Origin: an uncultured Bacilli bacterium
GTDB lineage: Bacteria; Bacillota_I; Bacilli_A; RF39; UBA660
Direction: 5' to 3'
Length of the DNA stretch: 64,000 nucleotides
Assembly (NCBI GenBank): GCA_944359065.1
Contig: CALVSP010000001.1
Location: forward strand, 4,314-68,313
Positions 47,178 through 59,090 of the stretch are shown here, piece by piece (positions within the stretch are counted from its first letter, which is position 1; each line of letters starts with the position of its first letter). The notes under the pieces are model-generated. The model searched no databases, was not told the origin of the DNA, and saw nothing but the letters and a program-made list of their open reading frames with translations. The translations under genes were made by a program, and so were the position numbers.

Positions 47178-47187
<10 letters not shown>

Positions 47188-47981
47188 TTCTCTATTCTCC
47201 TATTTTTTATGTATGTATTTATCTGTTCAATATATTCTTTTATATAATCTTTTTTATCTTTTTTTATTTCAAATTTTTCTAAAATTTCATCTAAACTAGC
47301 AACAAGCTCATCTAATTTAGGTACTATATCTGAAATGAAATCATAATGATTATCAATTATGTAATCAATTATTTCAGGAATCTCAAAATATTGATAACCT
47401 ACACAACAATATGGAATACCAACAGATTTATAACTATTAAAAGAAAAACCATTATCAAATGAAGGCGGCAACCTATATTGTTTTGTTTTTTCATTAAATA
47501 TTAAACCAATATTTTCCATTTTAGCATCAATATTCTCTGTTATGCATTTTCCAAATAATATTCTTATATATTCTTTTTTTAACTCATTTTGATTTTCCTT
47601 TGATATCATACCTAAATTGACAAATTTATTAAATATTTGTTCAAAACATAATCTAAGTTCTTCTTCTCTTAACGATGTTCTAACGGGAATCCAATCCAAC
47701 CATTCATATAGCACATCAGCTTCATCAGTTAAAAAATTTGTTACTAAACAGCAATTATGTCTAGCATAAAGATCATACCCTAATTGAACATCAACACAAG
47801 GAATATTAATTTGACCTAATATTATACTAGTCAAACATTCCATAACATCTTGATCTGTATTTTTACTAACTTTAACCAGTTTTTTTACATTATCGTCAGC
47901 AACCCAGAATTTTTCATTTACAGCTTTACCTCGTGGCTCAATTCTTAAAAATTCTAGTTTTGACACATCTACTCGTTCCAT
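47178..47981 (-). CDS. HipA-like kinase C-terminal domain protein
   Basis: ENIDAKMENIGLIFNEKTKQYRLPPSFDNGFSF resembles HipA_C (DxHxxNxSllxxxxxxxrLAPxYD). Confidence 0.45.
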
Positions 47982-47983
47982 AC

Positions 47984-48283
47984 TTATCTTTCTCTTTCAT
48001 ATTTAATTAATAATTTATCCGTGATTAATTCACCATAATCCCGTTTCATCGATTCTATACTAAAATTATAATATCTATTTTTAAACACTTGAAACAAATC
48101 TTTACTTTTATACATTTTATTAATATCCAACATATCAGGAAATGGACGAAAACCTTCTTTCATAGCTTTTTTAATACAATTAGAATTATATTTAAAATAC
48201 CATAAATCATCGTAAATTAAAAAGCCAACTACTTGTTTATTTTTTTCGTCATAACTATGCCATATTACATAAAAAACTTCCAT
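47984..48283 (-). CDS. hypothetical protein, 3 bp upstream of the HipA-like gene (possibly a split HipA N-part)
   Basis: 99-aa ORF. Confidence 0.35.
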   Translation of the reverse strand: MEVFYVIWHSYDEKNKQVVGFLIYDDLWYFKYNSNCIKKAMKEGFRPFPDMLDINKMYKSKDLFQVFKNRYYNFSIESMKRDYGELITDKLLIKYERER

Positions 48284-50420: not shown

Positions 50421-50459
50421 AAACAAAAATAAAGAAAAAGAATGATTTTCACCATTCTT
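50421..50459 (-). terminator. rho-independent terminator ending the bacteriocin operon, upstream of rpsU
   Basis: Stem aagaatg/cattctt (50438..50444 / 50453..50459) with an 8-nt loop, followed on the minus strand by tttttctttattttt. Confidence 0.55.
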
Positions 50460-50602
50460 TTAGACTGGACAAGAAGTTAAGCATCTAATAGAAGAACCTA
50501 CTAAATTGCCAAATTTAAATATTATTTCCACACATATAGGAAACAAAGGTAATAAACAAAGTACTACAACGGCTAATATAATTTGTTTATAATAATTTTT
50601 TA

Positions 50603-50764
50603 TTATACTGGACACACTGAACCTGATATCGCTCTTCTAATCGCACTACCTAAGCTTCTTCCGACATCCATTATTGCTTCAATTCCTTTATAAATTGAAC
50701 TTAATAAACTACCAGTAATATTGATACCACCTACTACTTGTAATAATTCTTCTTTTTCTAACAT
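50603..50764 (-). CDS. class II bacteriocin-like precursor peptide with double-glycine leader (not in the ORF track)
   Basis: MLEKEELLQVVGG | INITGSLLSSIYKGIEAIMDVGRSLGSAIRRAISGSVCPV (53 aa). Perfect RBS ggaggtg 7 nt upstream of the ATG. Confidence 0.7.
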   Translation of the reverse strand: MLEKEELLQVVGGINITGSLLSSIYKGIEAIMDVGRSLGSAIRRAISGSVCPV

Positions 50765-50774
50765 AATTCACCTC

Positions 50775-50909
50775 CTAATTACATTTAAGTGGTCTTATAT
50801 AACCATCGATAACACCGATTAAAAATATAACACCAGCTCCTATTAATAAGCCTAAACCTAATCCACCGCCGGATATCTTTTGTAATTCATTTTTTCCTAA
50901 CCTTTCCAT
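50775..50909 (-). CDS. second double-glycine-leader peptide; Gly-rich hydrophobic core (not in the ORF track)
   Basis: MERLGKNELQKISGG | GLGLGLLIGAGVIFLIGVIDGYIRPLKCN (44 aa). RBS aaagga. Overlaps the end of the accessory gene by 13 nt. Confidence 0.65.
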   Translation of the reverse strand: MERLGKNELQKISGGGLGLGLLIGAGVIFLIGVIDGYIRPLKCN

Positions 50910-51355
50910 TTTTCAAATCCTTTCTTTAATTGATGATAAATTGTCGTTTTATCATTTTTTAAAACAATATTAATAATATTATTTTCTATTTTACTTTCTT
51001 GTTTTAAAGCAAAATCTAATATTACTTGATAACACAATTTATCATCAATAGCAAAATATTCTTCACTTATTGAAACAACTTTAAAACTATAATCTTGATT
51101 ATCTACTAATAAATTACTTTTAGATAATTTATCTATACTTTCTTTTGGAACATAAATAATAGTATAAAATGAATCATCTATTTTTTTTACATATCCAAAA
51201 TATGATTGATACAAATAATATTCGTATTTTAAAGCGATAATTACAAATATAATAAAAGAAATAATTAAAAATATAATAAAGAAAATAATCGATTTGGAAG
51301 TTTTTTTATTCAAAATGTAAGAGAAGTTATTATATATTTTTGGATAGATCATCAA
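50897..51355 (-). CDS. single-TM accessory protein of the bacteriocin exporter (short; HlyD-like N-terminus or immunity-like)
   Basis: 152 aa. TM SIIFFIIFLIISFIIFVIIAL. Overlaps the ABC gene by 26 nt. Confidence 0.4.
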   Translation of the reverse strand: MMIYPKIYNNFSYILNKKTSKSIIFFIIFLIISFIIFVIIALKYEYYLYQSYFGYVKKIDDSFYTIIYVPKESIDKLSKSNLLVDNQDYSFKVVSISEEYFAIDDKLCYQVILDFALKQESKIENNIINIVLKNDKTTIYHQLKKGFEKWKG

Positions 51356-53366
51356 CTATTTTTCCTTTCTCTATTTTTATAACTTGGTTAAATAAATCCA
51401 TATTATCTAAACGATGGGATATAAATATTATTGTCTTATCGTTGTATTCTTTTAAAATATTTTTCATAATCACGCGTTCCATATTAGTATCAACTTGACT
51501 TAATCCTTCATCGATAATTAAAATATCAAAAGGATTAGAAATTGCGCGACTTAAAATTATTCTTTGTTTCTCACCACCCGATAAATTAAAGCCATTTTCT
51601 TCAATTAAAGTTTTATAACCTAATTGCATCTTTTTAACAATTTCATCAACTAAACATATTTTAGACACTTTATAAATATCGTTACCTATATTGTTTTCCA
51701 ATGTATCAGAAAATAATATTTCATTTTGTGATACATAAACAATATTATTTAATTTGTAGTCATTAATATCAATATCACCAATATATACTTTATCTCTTTT
51801 AATTTCATAGTGTTGTTTTAAAATTTTAAATAAAGTACTTTTTCCACTACCACTACTTCCTAATACCATAACCTTACTTTTATTTTTTATCGTTAAATTA
51901 ATATCTTTTAAAACATCTGTGACATCATCAAAACTATAACTTAGATTATTAAATACTATATCGCCAGTAACTGAATTAACCAAGGAATCACTCTTTTTAT
52001 AATATAAATATAGAATTTTTTTTAACGATATTTTTGATTGTTTTAAATTGTTATCTAAATCGATAATATTTCGAATTGGACTTAAAAAATAAACGAGTAA
52101 TGAATTGAATGACAATAATGTACCAAACGTTATTTCATTATCAATTACTAAAATAATGCCTACTAATATAATAATTAAAAATCCAATATCATTTATTAAT
52201 TCTTTTAGTAAAAATTGATAATTATAACATTCATCTAAGTTTTTTATTTTATTAGAATAAGTAGCATATTTATCTTCAAAATTATCTATAATTTTATTTT
52301 CAATATTACATCCTTTTAAAGTTTCATAACCATTAATCGTCTCCACCATATAAGAAGTTACCAAAGATTTATTTAATATAGTTTCATCAATTAATTCATT
52401 AAACTTATTTCTAAATATAACTATAATCAATAAATAAAACATCATAATAACTAGACTTATAAAAAACAAAGTAGAATTTAAAATATACATAATTATTAAA
52501 GATAAAATTGTGAGTGGTAAATCGATAAATAAACTTAAAGCAACTTTAGCAATCACTTGTCTTACTGCTTCTAAATCATTTATCTTTGATATTATTTCAC
52601 CAGTTGTATTATTTTTATAATAACGATATGGGAGGTTTATAATTTGTTTAAAAGTATTAAATGTAAGATTAAAATCGATTTTTTGATTGATCAAAATCAA
52701 TATTTTATTTCTTAAAAAATCTGAAACTATTTTTAATAGATAAACAAGTAAAAATAATATAAATATTAAAATTATTTTTGTTTTAGAAAACATAATATTA
52801 TCGATCATATATTGCATATAAAATGATGTGATAATAGAAAATATTGTAATAAAAATAGATATAATAATAACTTGAACCAATTGATTAGTTGAGGTCTTGA
52901 TAATTTCTTTTAAAAATTCTATACGCGAGTTATTGGGGGTATTTATTATTTTCTTAATAGGATATAAAAAAATTATTATACTGCTAAAAATTTTTGCAAA
53001 TTCTTGATATGAATAGTATTTATGTATGCCAATTGGATCGTAAATTAATAACTTTTTCTTTTTAAAATCTATTTTTTCAATTACAACATAATGTTTGTAG
53101 GAGTTATTTACGATTACATGAGCAATACATGGTAATATTACATTTTCTTTTTTTAAATCTTCTAATTTACATTTAAAACCATAACTTTCGAATCCTAATT
53201 TTTTACTTGCTTCAATTAAATGATAAGCGGTCGTTCCAGATTTATCAGTTTTACACATTTCTTTTAAATCATTAATATCGACATTACCTTTGTAATGTTT
53301 AATAATATTAAGTAGACAACTAGGTCCACAATCTTTTAAACCTTCTTGCTTAATTCTTCTAAACAC
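51330..53366 (-). CDS. bacteriocin-processing ABC transporter with N-terminal C39 peptidase domain
   Basis: C39 (LKDCGPSCLLNII, catalytic Cys). Six TM region. NBD with GSSGSGKST, LSGGEKQRI, ILIIDEGLS. Confidence 0.9.
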   Translation of the reverse strand: MFRRIKQEGLKDCGPSCLLNIIKHYKGNVDINDLKEMCKTDKSGTTAYHLIEASKKLGFESYGFKCKLEDLKKENVILPCIAHVIVNNSYKHYVVIEKIDFKKKKLLIYDPIGIHKYYSYQEFAKIFSSIIIFLYPIKKIINTPNNSRIEFLKEIIKTSTNQLVQVIIISIFITIFSIITSFYMQYMIDNIMFSKTKIILIFILFLLVYLLKIVSDFLRNKILILINQKIDFNLTFNTFKQIINLPYRYYKNNTTGEIISKINDLEAVRQVIAKVALSLFIDLPLTILSLIIMYILNSTLFFISLVIMMFYLLIIVIFRNKFNELIDETILNKSLVTSYMVETINGYETLKGCNIENKIIDNFEDKYATYSNKIKNLDECYNYQFLLKELINDIGFLIIILVGIILVIDNEITFGTLLSFNSLLVYFLSPIRNIIDLDNNLKQSKISLKKILYLYYKKSDSLVNSVTGDIVFNNLSYSFDDVTDVLKDINLTIKNKSKVMVLGSSGSGKSTLFKILKQHYEIKRDKVYIGDIDINDYKLNNIVYVSQNEILFSDTLENNIGNDIYKVSKICLVDEIVKKMQLGYKTLIEENGFNLSGGEKQRIILSRAISNPFDILIIDEGLSQVDTNMERVIMKNILKEYNDKTIIFISHRLDNMDLFNQVIKIEKGKIVDDLSKNI

Positions 53367-53420: not shown

Positions 53421-53450
53421 AAATAAAAAAAAATTGCATTTTTTGCAATT
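53421..53450 (-). terminator. rho-independent terminator after the yebC-like gene
   Basis: aattgca-ttttt-tgcaatt hairpin, with a T-run on the minus strand. Confidence 0.5.
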
Positions 53451-53451
53451 T

Positions 53452-58854: not shown

Positions 58855-58931
<77 letters not shown>

Positions 58932-58934
58932 TAC

Positions 58935-59011
58935 GCCTTAATAGCTCAGTCGGTTAGAGCACTTGACTGTTAATCAAGGGGTCGTAGGTTCGAGTCCTAC
59001 TTGAGGCGCCA
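58935..59011 (+). tRNA. tRNA-Asn (anticodon GTT)
   Basis: Acceptor gccttaa/ttgaggc, anticodon loop ctGTTaa, T-arm ggttcgagtcc, encoded CCA. Confidence 0.85.
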
Positions 59012-59013
59012 TT

Positions 59014-59090
59014 GGCCAGTTGGTGAAGTGGCTTAACACACTGCCCTTTCACGGCAGCATTCATGGGTCCGAATCCCATACTGGTCACCA
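59014..59090 (+). tRNA. tRNA-Glu (anticodon TTC)
   Basis: Acceptor ggccagt/actggtc, anticodon stem ctgcc/ggcag with loop ctTTCac, encoded CCA. Confidence 0.8.

What the first reader, a model, noticed from the sequence alone, without database searches (positions are those of the whole stretch)
50603..50909. Unannotated two-peptide bacteriocin-like genes with double-glycine leaders next to the C39-ABC exporter
Two small minus-strand ORFs absent from the supplied track encode MLEKEELLQVVGG-INITGSLLSSIYKGIEAIMDVGRSLGSAIRRAISGSVCPV and MERLGKNELQKISGG-GLGLGLLIGAGVIFLIGVIDGYIRPLKCN. Each has a good RBS. They lie immediately downstream of the 152-aa accessory protein and the C39-peptidase ABC transporter (51330..53366), and a strong terminator closes the unit at 50421..50459. 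The leader architecture (LxxxELxxIxGG) and the GxxxG-rich cores are typical of class IIb two-peptide bacteriocins. No obvious immunity ORF with a start codon is present in the 140 bp between peptide 1 and the terminator.
Basis: seen in the sequence. Interest (0 to 1): 0.55.

Follow-up and report, generated by a model that had tools for sequence, protein, structure and literature searches.

The report
Conserved two-peptide bacteriocin operon with immunity gene

Summary
Observation confirmed. Both minus-strand ORFs exist (pep2 50775-50909, pep1 50603-50764). They are the only double-glycine-leader ORFs in the 64 kb window. They are under purifying selection and occur in this order in all 77 related species genomes found, which are uncultured Bacilli/"Tenericutes" MAGs, probably RF39-like.

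The class IIb interpretation is supported by sequence: canonical leaders, one invariant GxxxG per peptide, a hydrophobic peptide paired with an amphipathic cationic one, and a catalytically intact C39-ABC exporter. Relatives of pep2 hit the lactobin A/cerein 7B class IIb model. pep1 belongs to a large unnamed family of about 385 clusters.

One claim is wrong. A conserved 51-aa ORF (50460-50615, GTG start, overlapping the end of pep1 by 13 nt) lies between pep1 and the terminator. It has one transmembrane helix, and its C-terminal half is homologous to the C-terminal half of pep1. It is the likely immunity protein.

The 151-aa "accessory" protein models as a membrane-anchored beta-barrel resembling membrane-fusion adaptors, and it is distantly related to the Mycoplasma MAG1140 family.

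The operon usually sits next to rpsU, which suggests long vertical inheritance. Each peptide keeps one C-terminal cysteine. Antimicrobial activity is untested.

Verdict: new member of a known kind, with some unusual details.

The parts
53421..53451 (-). Terminator-like hairpin (AAATTGCA-AAAA-TGCAATTT plus a T-run) directly after the yebC stop. It marks the upstream boundary of the unit.
   Evidence: Read from the sequence. The consensus scan did not list it because the stem is AT-rich.
51330..53366 (-). Peptide-cleaving exporter, 678 aa: N-terminal C39 peptidase, ABC membrane domain and ATPase. GTG start preceded by the SD AGGGAGG.
   Evidence: Pfam: Peptidase_C39 1.1e-30, ABC_membrane 8.4e-34, ABC_tran 3.1e-22. 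TIGR01193 scores 405.8 bits, below its 523.85 cutoff. NF045998 (Mbov_0121 family) scores 299 bits, below its cutoff of 500. Catalytic Q7, C13, H92, D110, plus Walker A, LSGG and Walker B, are all present.
50897..51352 (-). Accessory protein, 151 aa from the ATG (152 aa from the TTG at 51355). N-terminal transmembrane helix, then a beta-barrel and a C-terminal helix. It overlaps the end of the ABC gene and the start of pep2 (by 13 nt).
   Evidence: AF2 model has mean pLDDT 87.2. The recurring theme among the best Foldseek PDB hits is membrane-fusion or periplasmic adaptor proteins (BesA, MacA, Spr0693, EmrA, CusB) at E 0.035-0.15. 18 of 44 diverse homologues weakly match NF045999, the MAG1140 family. 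Present in 55 of 73 complete loci.
50775..50909 (-). pep2 precursor, 44 aa. Leader MERLGKNELQKISGG (50865-50909). The 29-aa core GLGLGLLIGAGVIFLIGVIDGYIRPLKCN is hydrophobic and transmembrane-like, with GxxxG motifs and one C-terminal Cys.
   Evidence: TIGR01847 scores 15.9 bits (cutoff 15.7) and TIGR03949 scores 15.5 (cutoff 21.5). 33 of 38 relatives hit TIGR03949. pN/pS 0.23.
50603..50764 (-). pep1 precursor, 53 aa. Leader MLEKEELLQVVGG (50726-50764). The 40-aa core is an amphipathic cationic helix with the invariant motif GRSLGSAIRR and one C-terminal Cys.
   Evidence: Hydrophobic moment reaches 0.71. No Pfam or NCBIfam family. The family holds 385 clusters at 50% identity. pN/pS 0.17.
GTG start overlapping the pep1 stop by 13 nt. 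Basic N-terminus, one transmembrane helix with a conserved Pro, then G-x-x-x-G-(S/T)-x-I-R...C. This is the candidate immunity protein.
   Evidence: ORF listed. Homologues in 55 of 73 complete loci, mostly with an ATG start and the same 13-nt overlap. In-frame pN/pS is 0.27, against 0.93 and 2.55 (with many stops) in the other two frames. hhalign of pep1 against orf3 gives probability 90.7%, E 1.3e-6; the controls are negative. Not on record as a called gene.
50425..50461 (-). Intrinsic-terminator-like hairpin (11-bp stem, 4-nt loop) plus a U-tract. It starts at the orf3 stop codon and closes the unit. The rpsU promoter-like site follows at 50412-50384.
   Evidence: dG -10.7 kcal/mol, z -1.65. 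(TTGTAA-17-TATAAT with TG).

Best explanation
This is a self-contained five-gene operon, bounded by two terminator-like hairpins, for a class IIb-type two-peptide bacteriocin.

Proposed mechanism:
1. The precursors pep2 and pep1 are translated from tightly coupled genes.
2. The C39 domain of the ABC transporter recognises their double-glycine leaders (15 and 13 residues) and cuts after GG. The transporter exports the cores, helped by a very short membrane-anchored adaptor-like accessory protein.
3. Outside the cell, the hydrophobic 29-residue pep2 core and the amphipathic, cationic 40-residue pep1 core are expected to pair through their invariant GxxxG motifs in a target membrane and permeabilise it.
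4. The last gene, orf3, encodes a 51-residue single-pass membrane protein. Its predicted outward-facing C-terminal half is a paralogue of the C-terminal half of pep1. It most likely protects the producer, plausibly by taking pep1's place on pep2 or on the receptor.

Shown by sequence analysis: the genes, their coding status, the leader and GxxxG motifs, the intact peptidase and ATPase motifs, pep1-orf3 homology, and conservation and synteny across at least 77 species. Inferred: cleavage, export, pairing, killing, immunity and the membrane topology of orf3.
For: - Gene order ABC, accessory, pep2, pep1, orf3 is conserved. pep2 and pep1 are in all 77 loci, and all five genes are in 52 of 73 complete loci.
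- The leader consensus matches the double-glycine type at positions -1, -2, -4, -7, -8 and -12.
- C39 catalytic residues and ABC motifs are intact. The Pfam domains are strong.
- pep1, pep2 and orf3 each have an invariant GxxxG.
- The pep2 core is transmembrane-like (mean hydrophobicity 0.9). The pep1 core is amphipathic (moment up to 0.71) with net charge mostly +2 to +4.
- pep2 relatives hit TIGR03949 (33 of 38, best E 5.6e-7) and PF10439 (18 of 38).
- All three small ORFs are under purifying selection.
- orf3 is specifically homologous to the C-terminal half of pep1 (controls).
- Small single-helix immunity proteins encoded right after the peptide genes are known for class IIb: CbnZ (42 aa, N-terminus in, C-terminus out), BrcI (53 aa), EnkIaz (52 aa) and AbpIM (55 aa) (PMC6957408).
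- In some systems, such as lactococcin G, one operon holds both peptides, the immunity gene, the ABC transporter and the accessory gene (PMC2850506).
- The accessory model resembles membrane-fusion adaptors.
- No histidine kinase or response regulator lies within about 6 kb on either side.
Against: - No activity, export or immunity data exist. All producers are uncultured.
- The window's own peptides fall below the curated cutoffs of the named class IIb families (TIGR03949 15.5 against 21.5; no PF10439 hit). pep1 matches no known family.
- The accessory protein is about a third the size I recall for the usual HlyD-type accessory proteins (own knowledge). Its fold match is weak (E about 0.04, TM 0.27-0.43).
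- The mature cores are unusually conserved for a bacteriocin. The pep2 core has median 68% identity where the exporter has 45%, which equals ribosomal protein S21 at 67%.
- The locus is fixed beside rpsU in most genomes. This pattern looks more like a housekeeping trait than a typical variable weapon.
- Fifteen loci lack both the accessory gene and orf3 yet keep the peptides, so immunity there is unexplained.
Confidence: 0.66

Rival explanations
1. The exported peptide pair has a conserved, non-antagonistic role, for example as a processed membrane-inserted peptide complex, an envelope or physiology factor, or a host-directed or cell-to-cell signal. The bacteriocin-like export machinery would be retained only as a secretion route.
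For: - The cores are as conserved as ribosomal protein S21 across lineages whose exporter is only about 45% identical.
- The locus sits beside rpsU-yqeY in 53 of 73 assessable loci. Exporter divergence tracks YqeY divergence (rho 0.55, p 6e-5), which indicates long vertical inheritance in reduced genomes.
- There are no hits in viral contigs.
- Operon GC (22%) is close to that of the window (25%), so there is no sign of recent acquisition.
Against: - Every sequence feature is what class IIb bacteriocins show: a pair of GG-leader peptides, GxxxG motifs, a hydrophobic peptide with an amphipathic cationic one, and a small membrane protein gene immediately downstream (PMC2850506).
- No sensor kinase or regulator is nearby.
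- The mature peptides (29 and 40 aa, transmembrane-like) are unlike short pheromones of the ComC or BlpC type (own knowledge).
- Conserved bacteriocin cores are not unprecedented. Class IIa peptides are an example (own knowledge).
Confidence: 0.2
2. orf3 is not an immunity protein. It would instead be a third structural component: a membrane-anchored pep1-like subunit that assembles with the processed peptides on the producer surface, giving a three-component or contact-dependent system. It could act together with the accessory protein, with which it co-occurs.
For: - orf3 shares the GxxxG-(S/T)xIR...Cys module of pep1 with the same 12-residue spacing to the cysteine.
- orf3 and the accessory gene are gained or lost together: both in 52 loci, neither in 15, only one of the two in 6.
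- The peptides persist without orf3 in 15 loci.
- Surface-retained glycine-zipper two-protein bacteriocins exist, for example Cdz in Caulobacter (PMC5380434, abstract seen).
Against: - Gene position, size and a single helix with a basic N-terminus match the known small class IIb immunity proteins (PMC6957408).
- orf3 has no GG leader, so it is not a substrate of the exporter.
- The co-occurrence counts are not phylogenetically independent.
Confidence: 0.12
3. The small ORFs are chance open frames or decayed remnants with no function.
For: The window's own peptides miss the curated family cutoffs.
Against: - Frame-specific purifying selection.
- Conserved length, leaders and motifs in 77 species and hundreds of clusters.
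- Ribosome-binding sites and 13-nt coupling overlaps.
- These are the only two such ORFs in 64 kb.
Confidence: 0.01

Closest known systems
Lactococcin G-type class IIb operons, with two peptide genes, immunity gene, ABC transporter and accessory gene in one operon (as described in PMC2850506)
   Same: - Two adjacent GG-leader peptide genes.
- GxxxG motifs in both peptides.
- A downstream membrane-protein gene.
- A C39-ABC exporter and an accessory gene in the same transcription unit.
- No pheromone, kinase or regulator module nearby, so expression is possibly constitutive.
   Different: - Gene order here is exporter first.
- The accessory protein is only 151 aa.
- The immunity candidate has 51 aa and one helix. 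LagC has 110 aa and four helices (PMC6957408).
- There is no significant sequence match to the lactococcin G families: NF038034 scores 13.7 bits against a cutoff of 37.
- The locus is chromosomal and fixed next to rpsU across many species.
Lactobin A/cerein 7B family of class IIb peptides (NCBIfam TIGR03949) and Pfam PF10439 Bacteriocin_IIc
   Same: pep2 relatives match these models: 33 of 38 for TIGR03949 (best E 5.6e-7) and 18 of 38 for PF10439. They share a GG leader followed by a glycine-rich hydrophobic core.
   Different: - The window's pep2 scores 15.5 bits, below the 21.5 cutoff.
- The invariant tail IGVIDGY-x-RP-x-x-C with a single cysteine characterises this clade.
- pep1 has no counterpart in any named family.
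Small single-helix class IIb immunity proteins: CbnZ (42 aa), BrcI (53 aa), EnkIaz (52 aa), AbpIM (55 aa) (PMC6957408)
   Same: - Size of 47-62 aa.
- One transmembrane helix.
- Basic N-terminus, predicting N-terminus in and C-terminus out, as shown experimentally for CbnZ.
- The gene lies immediately after the two peptide genes.
   Different: - The C-terminal half of orf3 is homologous to the C-terminal half of one of the two peptides. I know of no such relationship for the named proteins (own knowledge, not tested).
- No sequence family match.
Mycoplasma module: Mbov_0121-family C39-ABC transporter (NF045998) with a MAG1140-family protein (NF045999)
   Same: The exporter scores 299 bits on NF045998. 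The accessory family is the only recurrent match to NF045999, in 18 of 44 members, over nearly the full length. Both modules come from wall-less or reduced relatives within the Bacilli/Mycoplasmatota.
   Different: All scores are below the curated cutoffs, so this is a distant relative and not a member. The function of the Mycoplasma pair is not described in the papers found. Whether GG-leader peptides follow it there could not be checked.
HlyD/membrane-fusion-type accessory proteins of peptide exporters and tripartite pumps (MacA, EmrA, BesA, Spr0693)
   Same: N-terminal membrane anchor followed by a beta-barrel domain. Membrane-fusion adaptors are the recurring theme among the best structural matches.
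   Different: There is no coiled-coil hairpin and no lipoyl domain, and the protein is only 151 aa. The similarity is weak (E 0.035 or higher, TM 0.27-0.43).

Membership tests
Class IIb two-peptide bacteriocins (criteria from PMC2850506) | Two different peptide genes next to each other in one operon | tested here: met
   pep2 and pep1 are separated by 10 nt in the window. They are adjacent in 70 of 76 loci where both were mapped; six loci carry an insertion between them.
Class IIb two-peptide bacteriocins (criteria from PMC2850506) | [quoted passage not shown] | tested here: met
   GG at -2/-1 in 75 of 76 pep2 and 76 of 78 pep1 sequences. I/V at -4, L at -7, E at -8, L at -12. Leaders are 13-15 aa, at or just below the 15-30 range quoted in the review.
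Class IIb two-peptide bacteriocins (criteria from PMC2850506) | Dedicated ABC transporter that cleaves the leader and exports the peptide | tested here: met
   An adjacent gene carries Peptidase_C39, ABC_membrane and ABC_tran domains with intact Q/C/H/D and Walker motifs. Cleavage itself was not tested.
Class IIb two-peptide bacteriocins (criteria from PMC2850506) | GxxxG (or similar) helix-helix motifs in both peptides | tested here: met
   Invariant G35xxxG39 in pep1 and G32xxxG36 in pep2.
Class IIb two-peptide bacteriocins (criteria from PMC2850506) | Immunity gene in the same operon | tested here: inconclusive
   A conserved, translationally coupled one-helix ORF (orf3) occupies the expected position. 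Its protective function is untested, and 18 of 73 complete loci lack it.
Class IIb two-peptide bacteriocins (criteria from PMC2850506) | [quoted passage not shown] | not testable with these tools
   Requires peptide synthesis and bioassays.
TIGR03949 class IIb bacteriocin, lactobin A/cerein 7B family | Score at or above the curated cutoff (21.5 bits) | tested here: not met
   The window's pep2 scores 15.5 bits. 33 of 38 relatives match at E <= 0.1, best 5.6e-7, so the clade borders this family.
TIGR01847 bacteriocin-type signal sequence | Score at or above the curated cutoff (15.7 bits) | tested here: met
   pep2 scores 15.9 bits, which is marginal. pep1 does not reach it.
TIGR01193 peptide cleavage/export ABC transporter | Score at or above the curated cutoff (523.85 bits) and the three-domain architecture | tested here: inconclusive
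   It is the best-scoring model, at 405.8 bits over residues 11-673, but below the cutoff. The architecture and motifs are present.
NF045999 MAG1140 family / NF045998 Mbov_0121 family (Mycoplasma) | Scores at or above the curated cutoffs (35 and 500 bits) | tested here: not met
   15 bits and 299 bits. 18 of 44 accessory homologues match weakly. This is a distant relative only.
HlyD/membrane-fusion accessory proteins | Membrane anchor plus the MFP domain set (beta-barrel, lipoyl domain, coiled-coil hairpin) | tested here: inconclusive
   The model has an anchor plus a beta-barrel only. The Foldseek hits to MFPs are weak. No Pfam HlyD hit.
Peptide-pheromone quorum-sensing modules (ComC/BlpC type) | Histidine kinase and response regulator genes next to the GG-leader peptide | tested here: not met
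   The neighbours are yebC, rnc, znuA, rpsU, yqeY, murD and eno. No kinase or regulator lies within about 6 kb.

The most novel reading that the evidence does not exclude
The two mature peptides act as a covalent heterodimer joined by a disulfide between their single, near-C-terminal cysteines. These cysteines are present in 76 of 77 loci and were lost together in the one exception. The producer is protected by a membrane-tethered decoy: orf3 is a paralogue of the C-terminal half of pep1, keeping the same GxxxG-to-Cys spacing, and it would capture pep2 or the receptor site in pep1's place. Together with order-wide vertical conservation next to rpsU, this would make the system a lineage-defining trait of RF39-like bacteria and not a strain-level weapon.
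Probability: 0.25. Interest if true: 0.7.

Novelty: new member of a known kind. Interest (0 to 1): 0.5.

Why it matters
RF39-like Bacilli are widespread, uncultured gut bacteria with reduced genomes (own knowledge), and almost nothing is known about how they interact with neighbours. If this conserved operon is an active bacteriocin, it gives the group a testable competitive mechanism. The peptides are short and apparently unmodified, so they could be synthesised directly.

The locus also adds a large unnamed peptide family (pep1, about 385 clusters) and an overlooked gene family (orf3) to the class II bacteriocin repertoire. It offers a possible example of immunity evolving by duplication of the toxin peptide. 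It also links the exporter and accessory pair to an uncharacterised Mycoplasma module.

Tried and rejected
- Pfam and NCBIfam scans of the window's pep1, orf3 and accessory protein gave no family above cutoff.
- Profile searches of pep1, pep2 and the accessory family against PDB sequences gave nothing meaningful.
- Rfam found no RNA element in or around the operon.
- A viral-contig scan for pep2 found no relatives, so there is no evidence of phage carriage.
- Literature searches found nothing relevant. I searched for RF39 plus bacteriocin, for MAG1140/Mbov_0121, for an intermolecular disulfide in two-peptide bacteriocins, and for the peptide motifs themselves. The large gut class II survey (PMC12648112) does not mention RF39, and its supplements are not held.
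- Source names for cluster members: none.
- AF2 on a natural pep2-pep1 fusion (P0162) without an alignment gave only two low-confidence helices (pLDDT 57), so it says nothing about pairing.
- The consensus scan found no sigma-70-like promoter in the 85-nt gap before the ABC gene. By eye there is only TTGCAG ... TAATAT with a 20-nt spacer, so I make no promoter claim.
- My first automatic call of the accessory gene was wrong for loci where the ABC gene abuts pep2, because it picked in-frame internal starts. I replaced it with an HMM-based count.

Full report
**1. Observation**

pep1 is preceded by AGGAGG and pep2 by AAGGA at suitable distances. A six-frame scan of the whole 64 kb window (GC 25%) for a double-glycine leader pattern followed by 15-90 codons returns only these two ORFs.

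The exact ABC protein occurs on a 20.7 kb ENA metagenome scaffold.

**2. The ORFs are real genes**

Word-index searches found 31 clusters (at 90% identity) of pep1 relatives and 37 of pep2 relatives, all of nearly the same length. The alignments show a variable leader and a strongly conserved core:
- pep1 invariant residues include G35, R36, G39, S40, I42, R43, R44 and C51.
- pep2 invariant residues include I31, G32, D35, G36, Y37, R39, P40, L41 and C43.

Among 11 close relatives, pooled pN/pS is 0.23 for pep2 and 0.17 for pep1. A profile of pep1 run against 1.84 billion representative proteins finds 385 clusters at E <= 1e-3, and nearly all are 50-57 aa. None carries a name in any source.

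**3. Distribution and context**

A scan of one genome per GTDB species found 77 loci. All are from uncultured MAGs labelled Bacilli, Tenericutes, Mollicutes or Mycoplasmatota, with some evidently mislabelled bins. They include Candidatus Faecisoma and Candidatus Pelethosoma. NCBI places Faecisoma in Mycoplasmatota incertae sedis. I take these to be RF39-like bacteria; that assignment is my own knowledge and was not tested.

pep2 followed by pep1 is present in every locus, with GG or AG leaders and Shine-Dalgarno sites.

Of 73 loci with enough flanking sequence:
- 44 have rpsU within 700 nt downstream.
- 8 have rpsU further downstream, after an insertion.
- 1 has it inverted on the other side.
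- 20 have no rpsU within the flank.

Exporter identity tracks YqeY identity (rho 0.55, p 6e-5). No relative was found in viral contigs. This points to long vertical inheritance.

In the 60 loci whose exporter is under 60% identical to the window's, median identities to the window are:

| Protein | Median identity |
|---|---|
| pep2 core | 68% |
| pep1 core | 46% |
| ABC exporter | 45% |
| accessory | 30% |
| orf3 | 38% |
| S21 | 67% |
| YqeY | 61% |

**4. Anatomy of the unit**

A terminator-like hairpin follows yebC at 53421-53451. The ABC gene then starts at a GTG (53366) behind AGGGAGG.

The ABC protein has Peptidase_C39, ABC_membrane and ABC_tran domains. Its motifs are Q7, C13 (DCG), H92 (HYVV), D110 (DP), Walker A, LSGG and Walker B. 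Its best NCBIfam model is TIGR01193, the peptide cleavage/export ABC transporter, at 405.8 bits, which is below the curated cutoff. It also scores 299 bits on the Mycoplasma Mbov_0121 family model.

The accessory gene (50897-51352) overlaps both of its neighbours. Its AF2 model (pLDDT 87) is a transmembrane helix, a beta-barrel and a C-terminal helix. The recurring theme among its best Foldseek PDB hits is membrane-fusion or periplasmic adaptor proteins (BesA, MacA, Spr0693, EmrA, CusB), but the scores are weak (E 0.035-0.15). Among 44 diverse homologues, the only recurrent family match is NF045999, the MAG1140 family, in 18 members with best E 1.5e-5.

The leaders fit the double-glycine consensus at positions -1, -2, -4, -7, -8 and -12. 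Cleavage would leave:
- a 29-aa hydrophobic pep2 core (18-residue window hydrophobicity up to 0.96), and
- a 40-aa amphipathic pep1 core (hydrophobic moment up to 0.71; net charge +2 in the window and mostly +2 to +4 in relatives).

**5. The missed gene**

That is wrong. ORF 50460-50615 (51 aa, GTG start) overlaps the end of pep1 by 13 nt.

- Homologues follow pep1 in 55 of 73 complete loci. Most have an ATG start and the same 13-nt overlap.
- In the orf3 frame, pN/pS is 0.27 with no stops. The other two frames give 0.93 and 2.55 with hundreds of stop-codon pairs.
- The family has a basic N-terminus, one transmembrane helix with a nearly invariant Pro, an invariant GxxxG, a nearly invariant Arg, and usually a C-terminal Cys.
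- Profile-profile comparison aligns pep1 residues 26-52 with orf3 columns 33-59 at probability 90.7%, E 1.3e-6. The controls are negative: pep2 against orf3 gives 0.1%, and pep1 against pep2 aligns only the leaders at 27%.
- The spacing from the second Gly of GxxxG to the Cys is 12 residues both in pep1 and in most orf3 proteins (read).
- orf3 is not on record as a called gene and matches no family.

Its position, size and single helix match the small class IIb immunity proteins CbnZ (42 aa; N-terminus in, C-terminus out shown experimentally), BrcI, EnkIaz and AbpIM (PMC6957408).

The unit ends in an 11-bp hairpin plus U-tract at 50425-50461. This is moderate and not strong (dG -10.7 kcal/mol, z -1.65). 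An rpsU promoter-like site follows.

**6. Interpretation**

Measured against the definition in the class IIb review (PMC2850506), every sequence-level criterion is met:
- adjacent genes for two different GG-leader peptides,
- a dedicated cleaving ABC exporter,
- GxxxG motifs in both peptides, and
- an accessory gene in the same operon.

A downstream membrane-protein gene sits in the immunity position; I rate that criterion inconclusive because protection is untested and 18 of 73 loci lack it.

pep2 borders a named class IIb family: 33 of 38 relatives hit TIGR03949 and 18 of 38 hit PF10439. The window's own copy scores below the cutoff. pep1 and orf3 are unnamed families. No kinase or regulator is nearby, which argues against a pheromone module. 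I therefore read the locus as a class IIb-type bacteriocin operon with its immunity gene, at confidence about 0.66. Export, pairing, killing and immunity are all inferred.

**7. What is unusual**

- *Conservation and fixed position.* The cores are very conserved and the locus keeps a fixed chromosomal position across many species. This is atypical for bacteriocins and keeps a non-antagonistic role alive as a rival, at about 0.2.
- *Immunity candidate as a paralogue of a toxin peptide.* This suggests protection by mimicry.
- *One near-C-terminal cysteine per peptide.* There is one Cys in 75 of 78 pep1 cores and in 67 of 76 pep2 cores. The cysteine is absent from both peptides in the single locus L078. 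This is compatible with a disulfide-linked heterodimer, but it is a single event on a 2.9 kb contig. I found no paper describing such a link in two-peptide bacteriocins.
- *A very short accessory protein that co-occurs with orf3.* Both are present in 52 loci, neither in 15, and only one of the two in 6. These counts are not corrected for phylogeny.
- *A distant link to an uncharacterised Mycoplasma exporter-accessory pair*.

**8. Verdict**

The locus is a new member of a known kind, with several features worth an experiment. Interest 0.5.

Noticed in passing
P0162 and P0210 (representative proteins; sequences): In two metagenomic cluster representatives, pep2 and pep1 are encoded as one continuous ORF of about 101 aa with two GG-leader sites. 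This is a natural fusion that would need two cleavages by the exporter.
   Followed up: partly
L018:7208-8281; L062:7162-7812 (also L020, L026, L036, L049): Unrelated genes are inserted between pep2 and pep1 in some species: an Amidase_2 (N-acetylmuramoyl-L-alanine amidase) protein in L018 and a class I methyltransferase in L062. The peptide pair therefore tolerates separation.
   Followed up: partly
L078:234-534: This is the only locus where both peptides have lost their C-terminal cysteine. pep2 ends ...GYLNPEEAEKSGSHAF and pep1 ends ...REIREKNN. The contig is short (2.9 kb), and the locus also lacks the accessory gene and orf3.
   Followed up: no
L004:3649-7468: Here rpsU-yqeY lie on the opposite strand, upstream of the ABC gene, instead of downstream of orf3. 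This is a local inversion that still keeps the operon next to rpsU.
   Followed up: no
window 47178-48283 (-): Two adjacent conserved-looking ORFs (99 aa and 267 aa) lie between murD and a PEBP-family gene. Neither has a Pfam match, and their function is unknown.
   Followed up: partly
window 50897-50909 and 50603-50615: The same 13-nt overlap joins the accessory gene to pep2 and joins pep1 to orf3. This suggests translational coupling along the operon. The pep1/orf3 overlap is conserved in most of the loci that carry orf3.
   Followed up: partly
window 58855-59087 (+): A cluster of three tRNA genes. It is ordinary and unrelated to the finding.
   Followed up: no
L076:352-973: In a divergent locus labelled Clostridium sp., the peptide pair is followed by two small ORFs (104 and 95 aa) that look WXG100/ESAT-6-like by eye, instead of orf3 and rpsU.
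   Followed up: no
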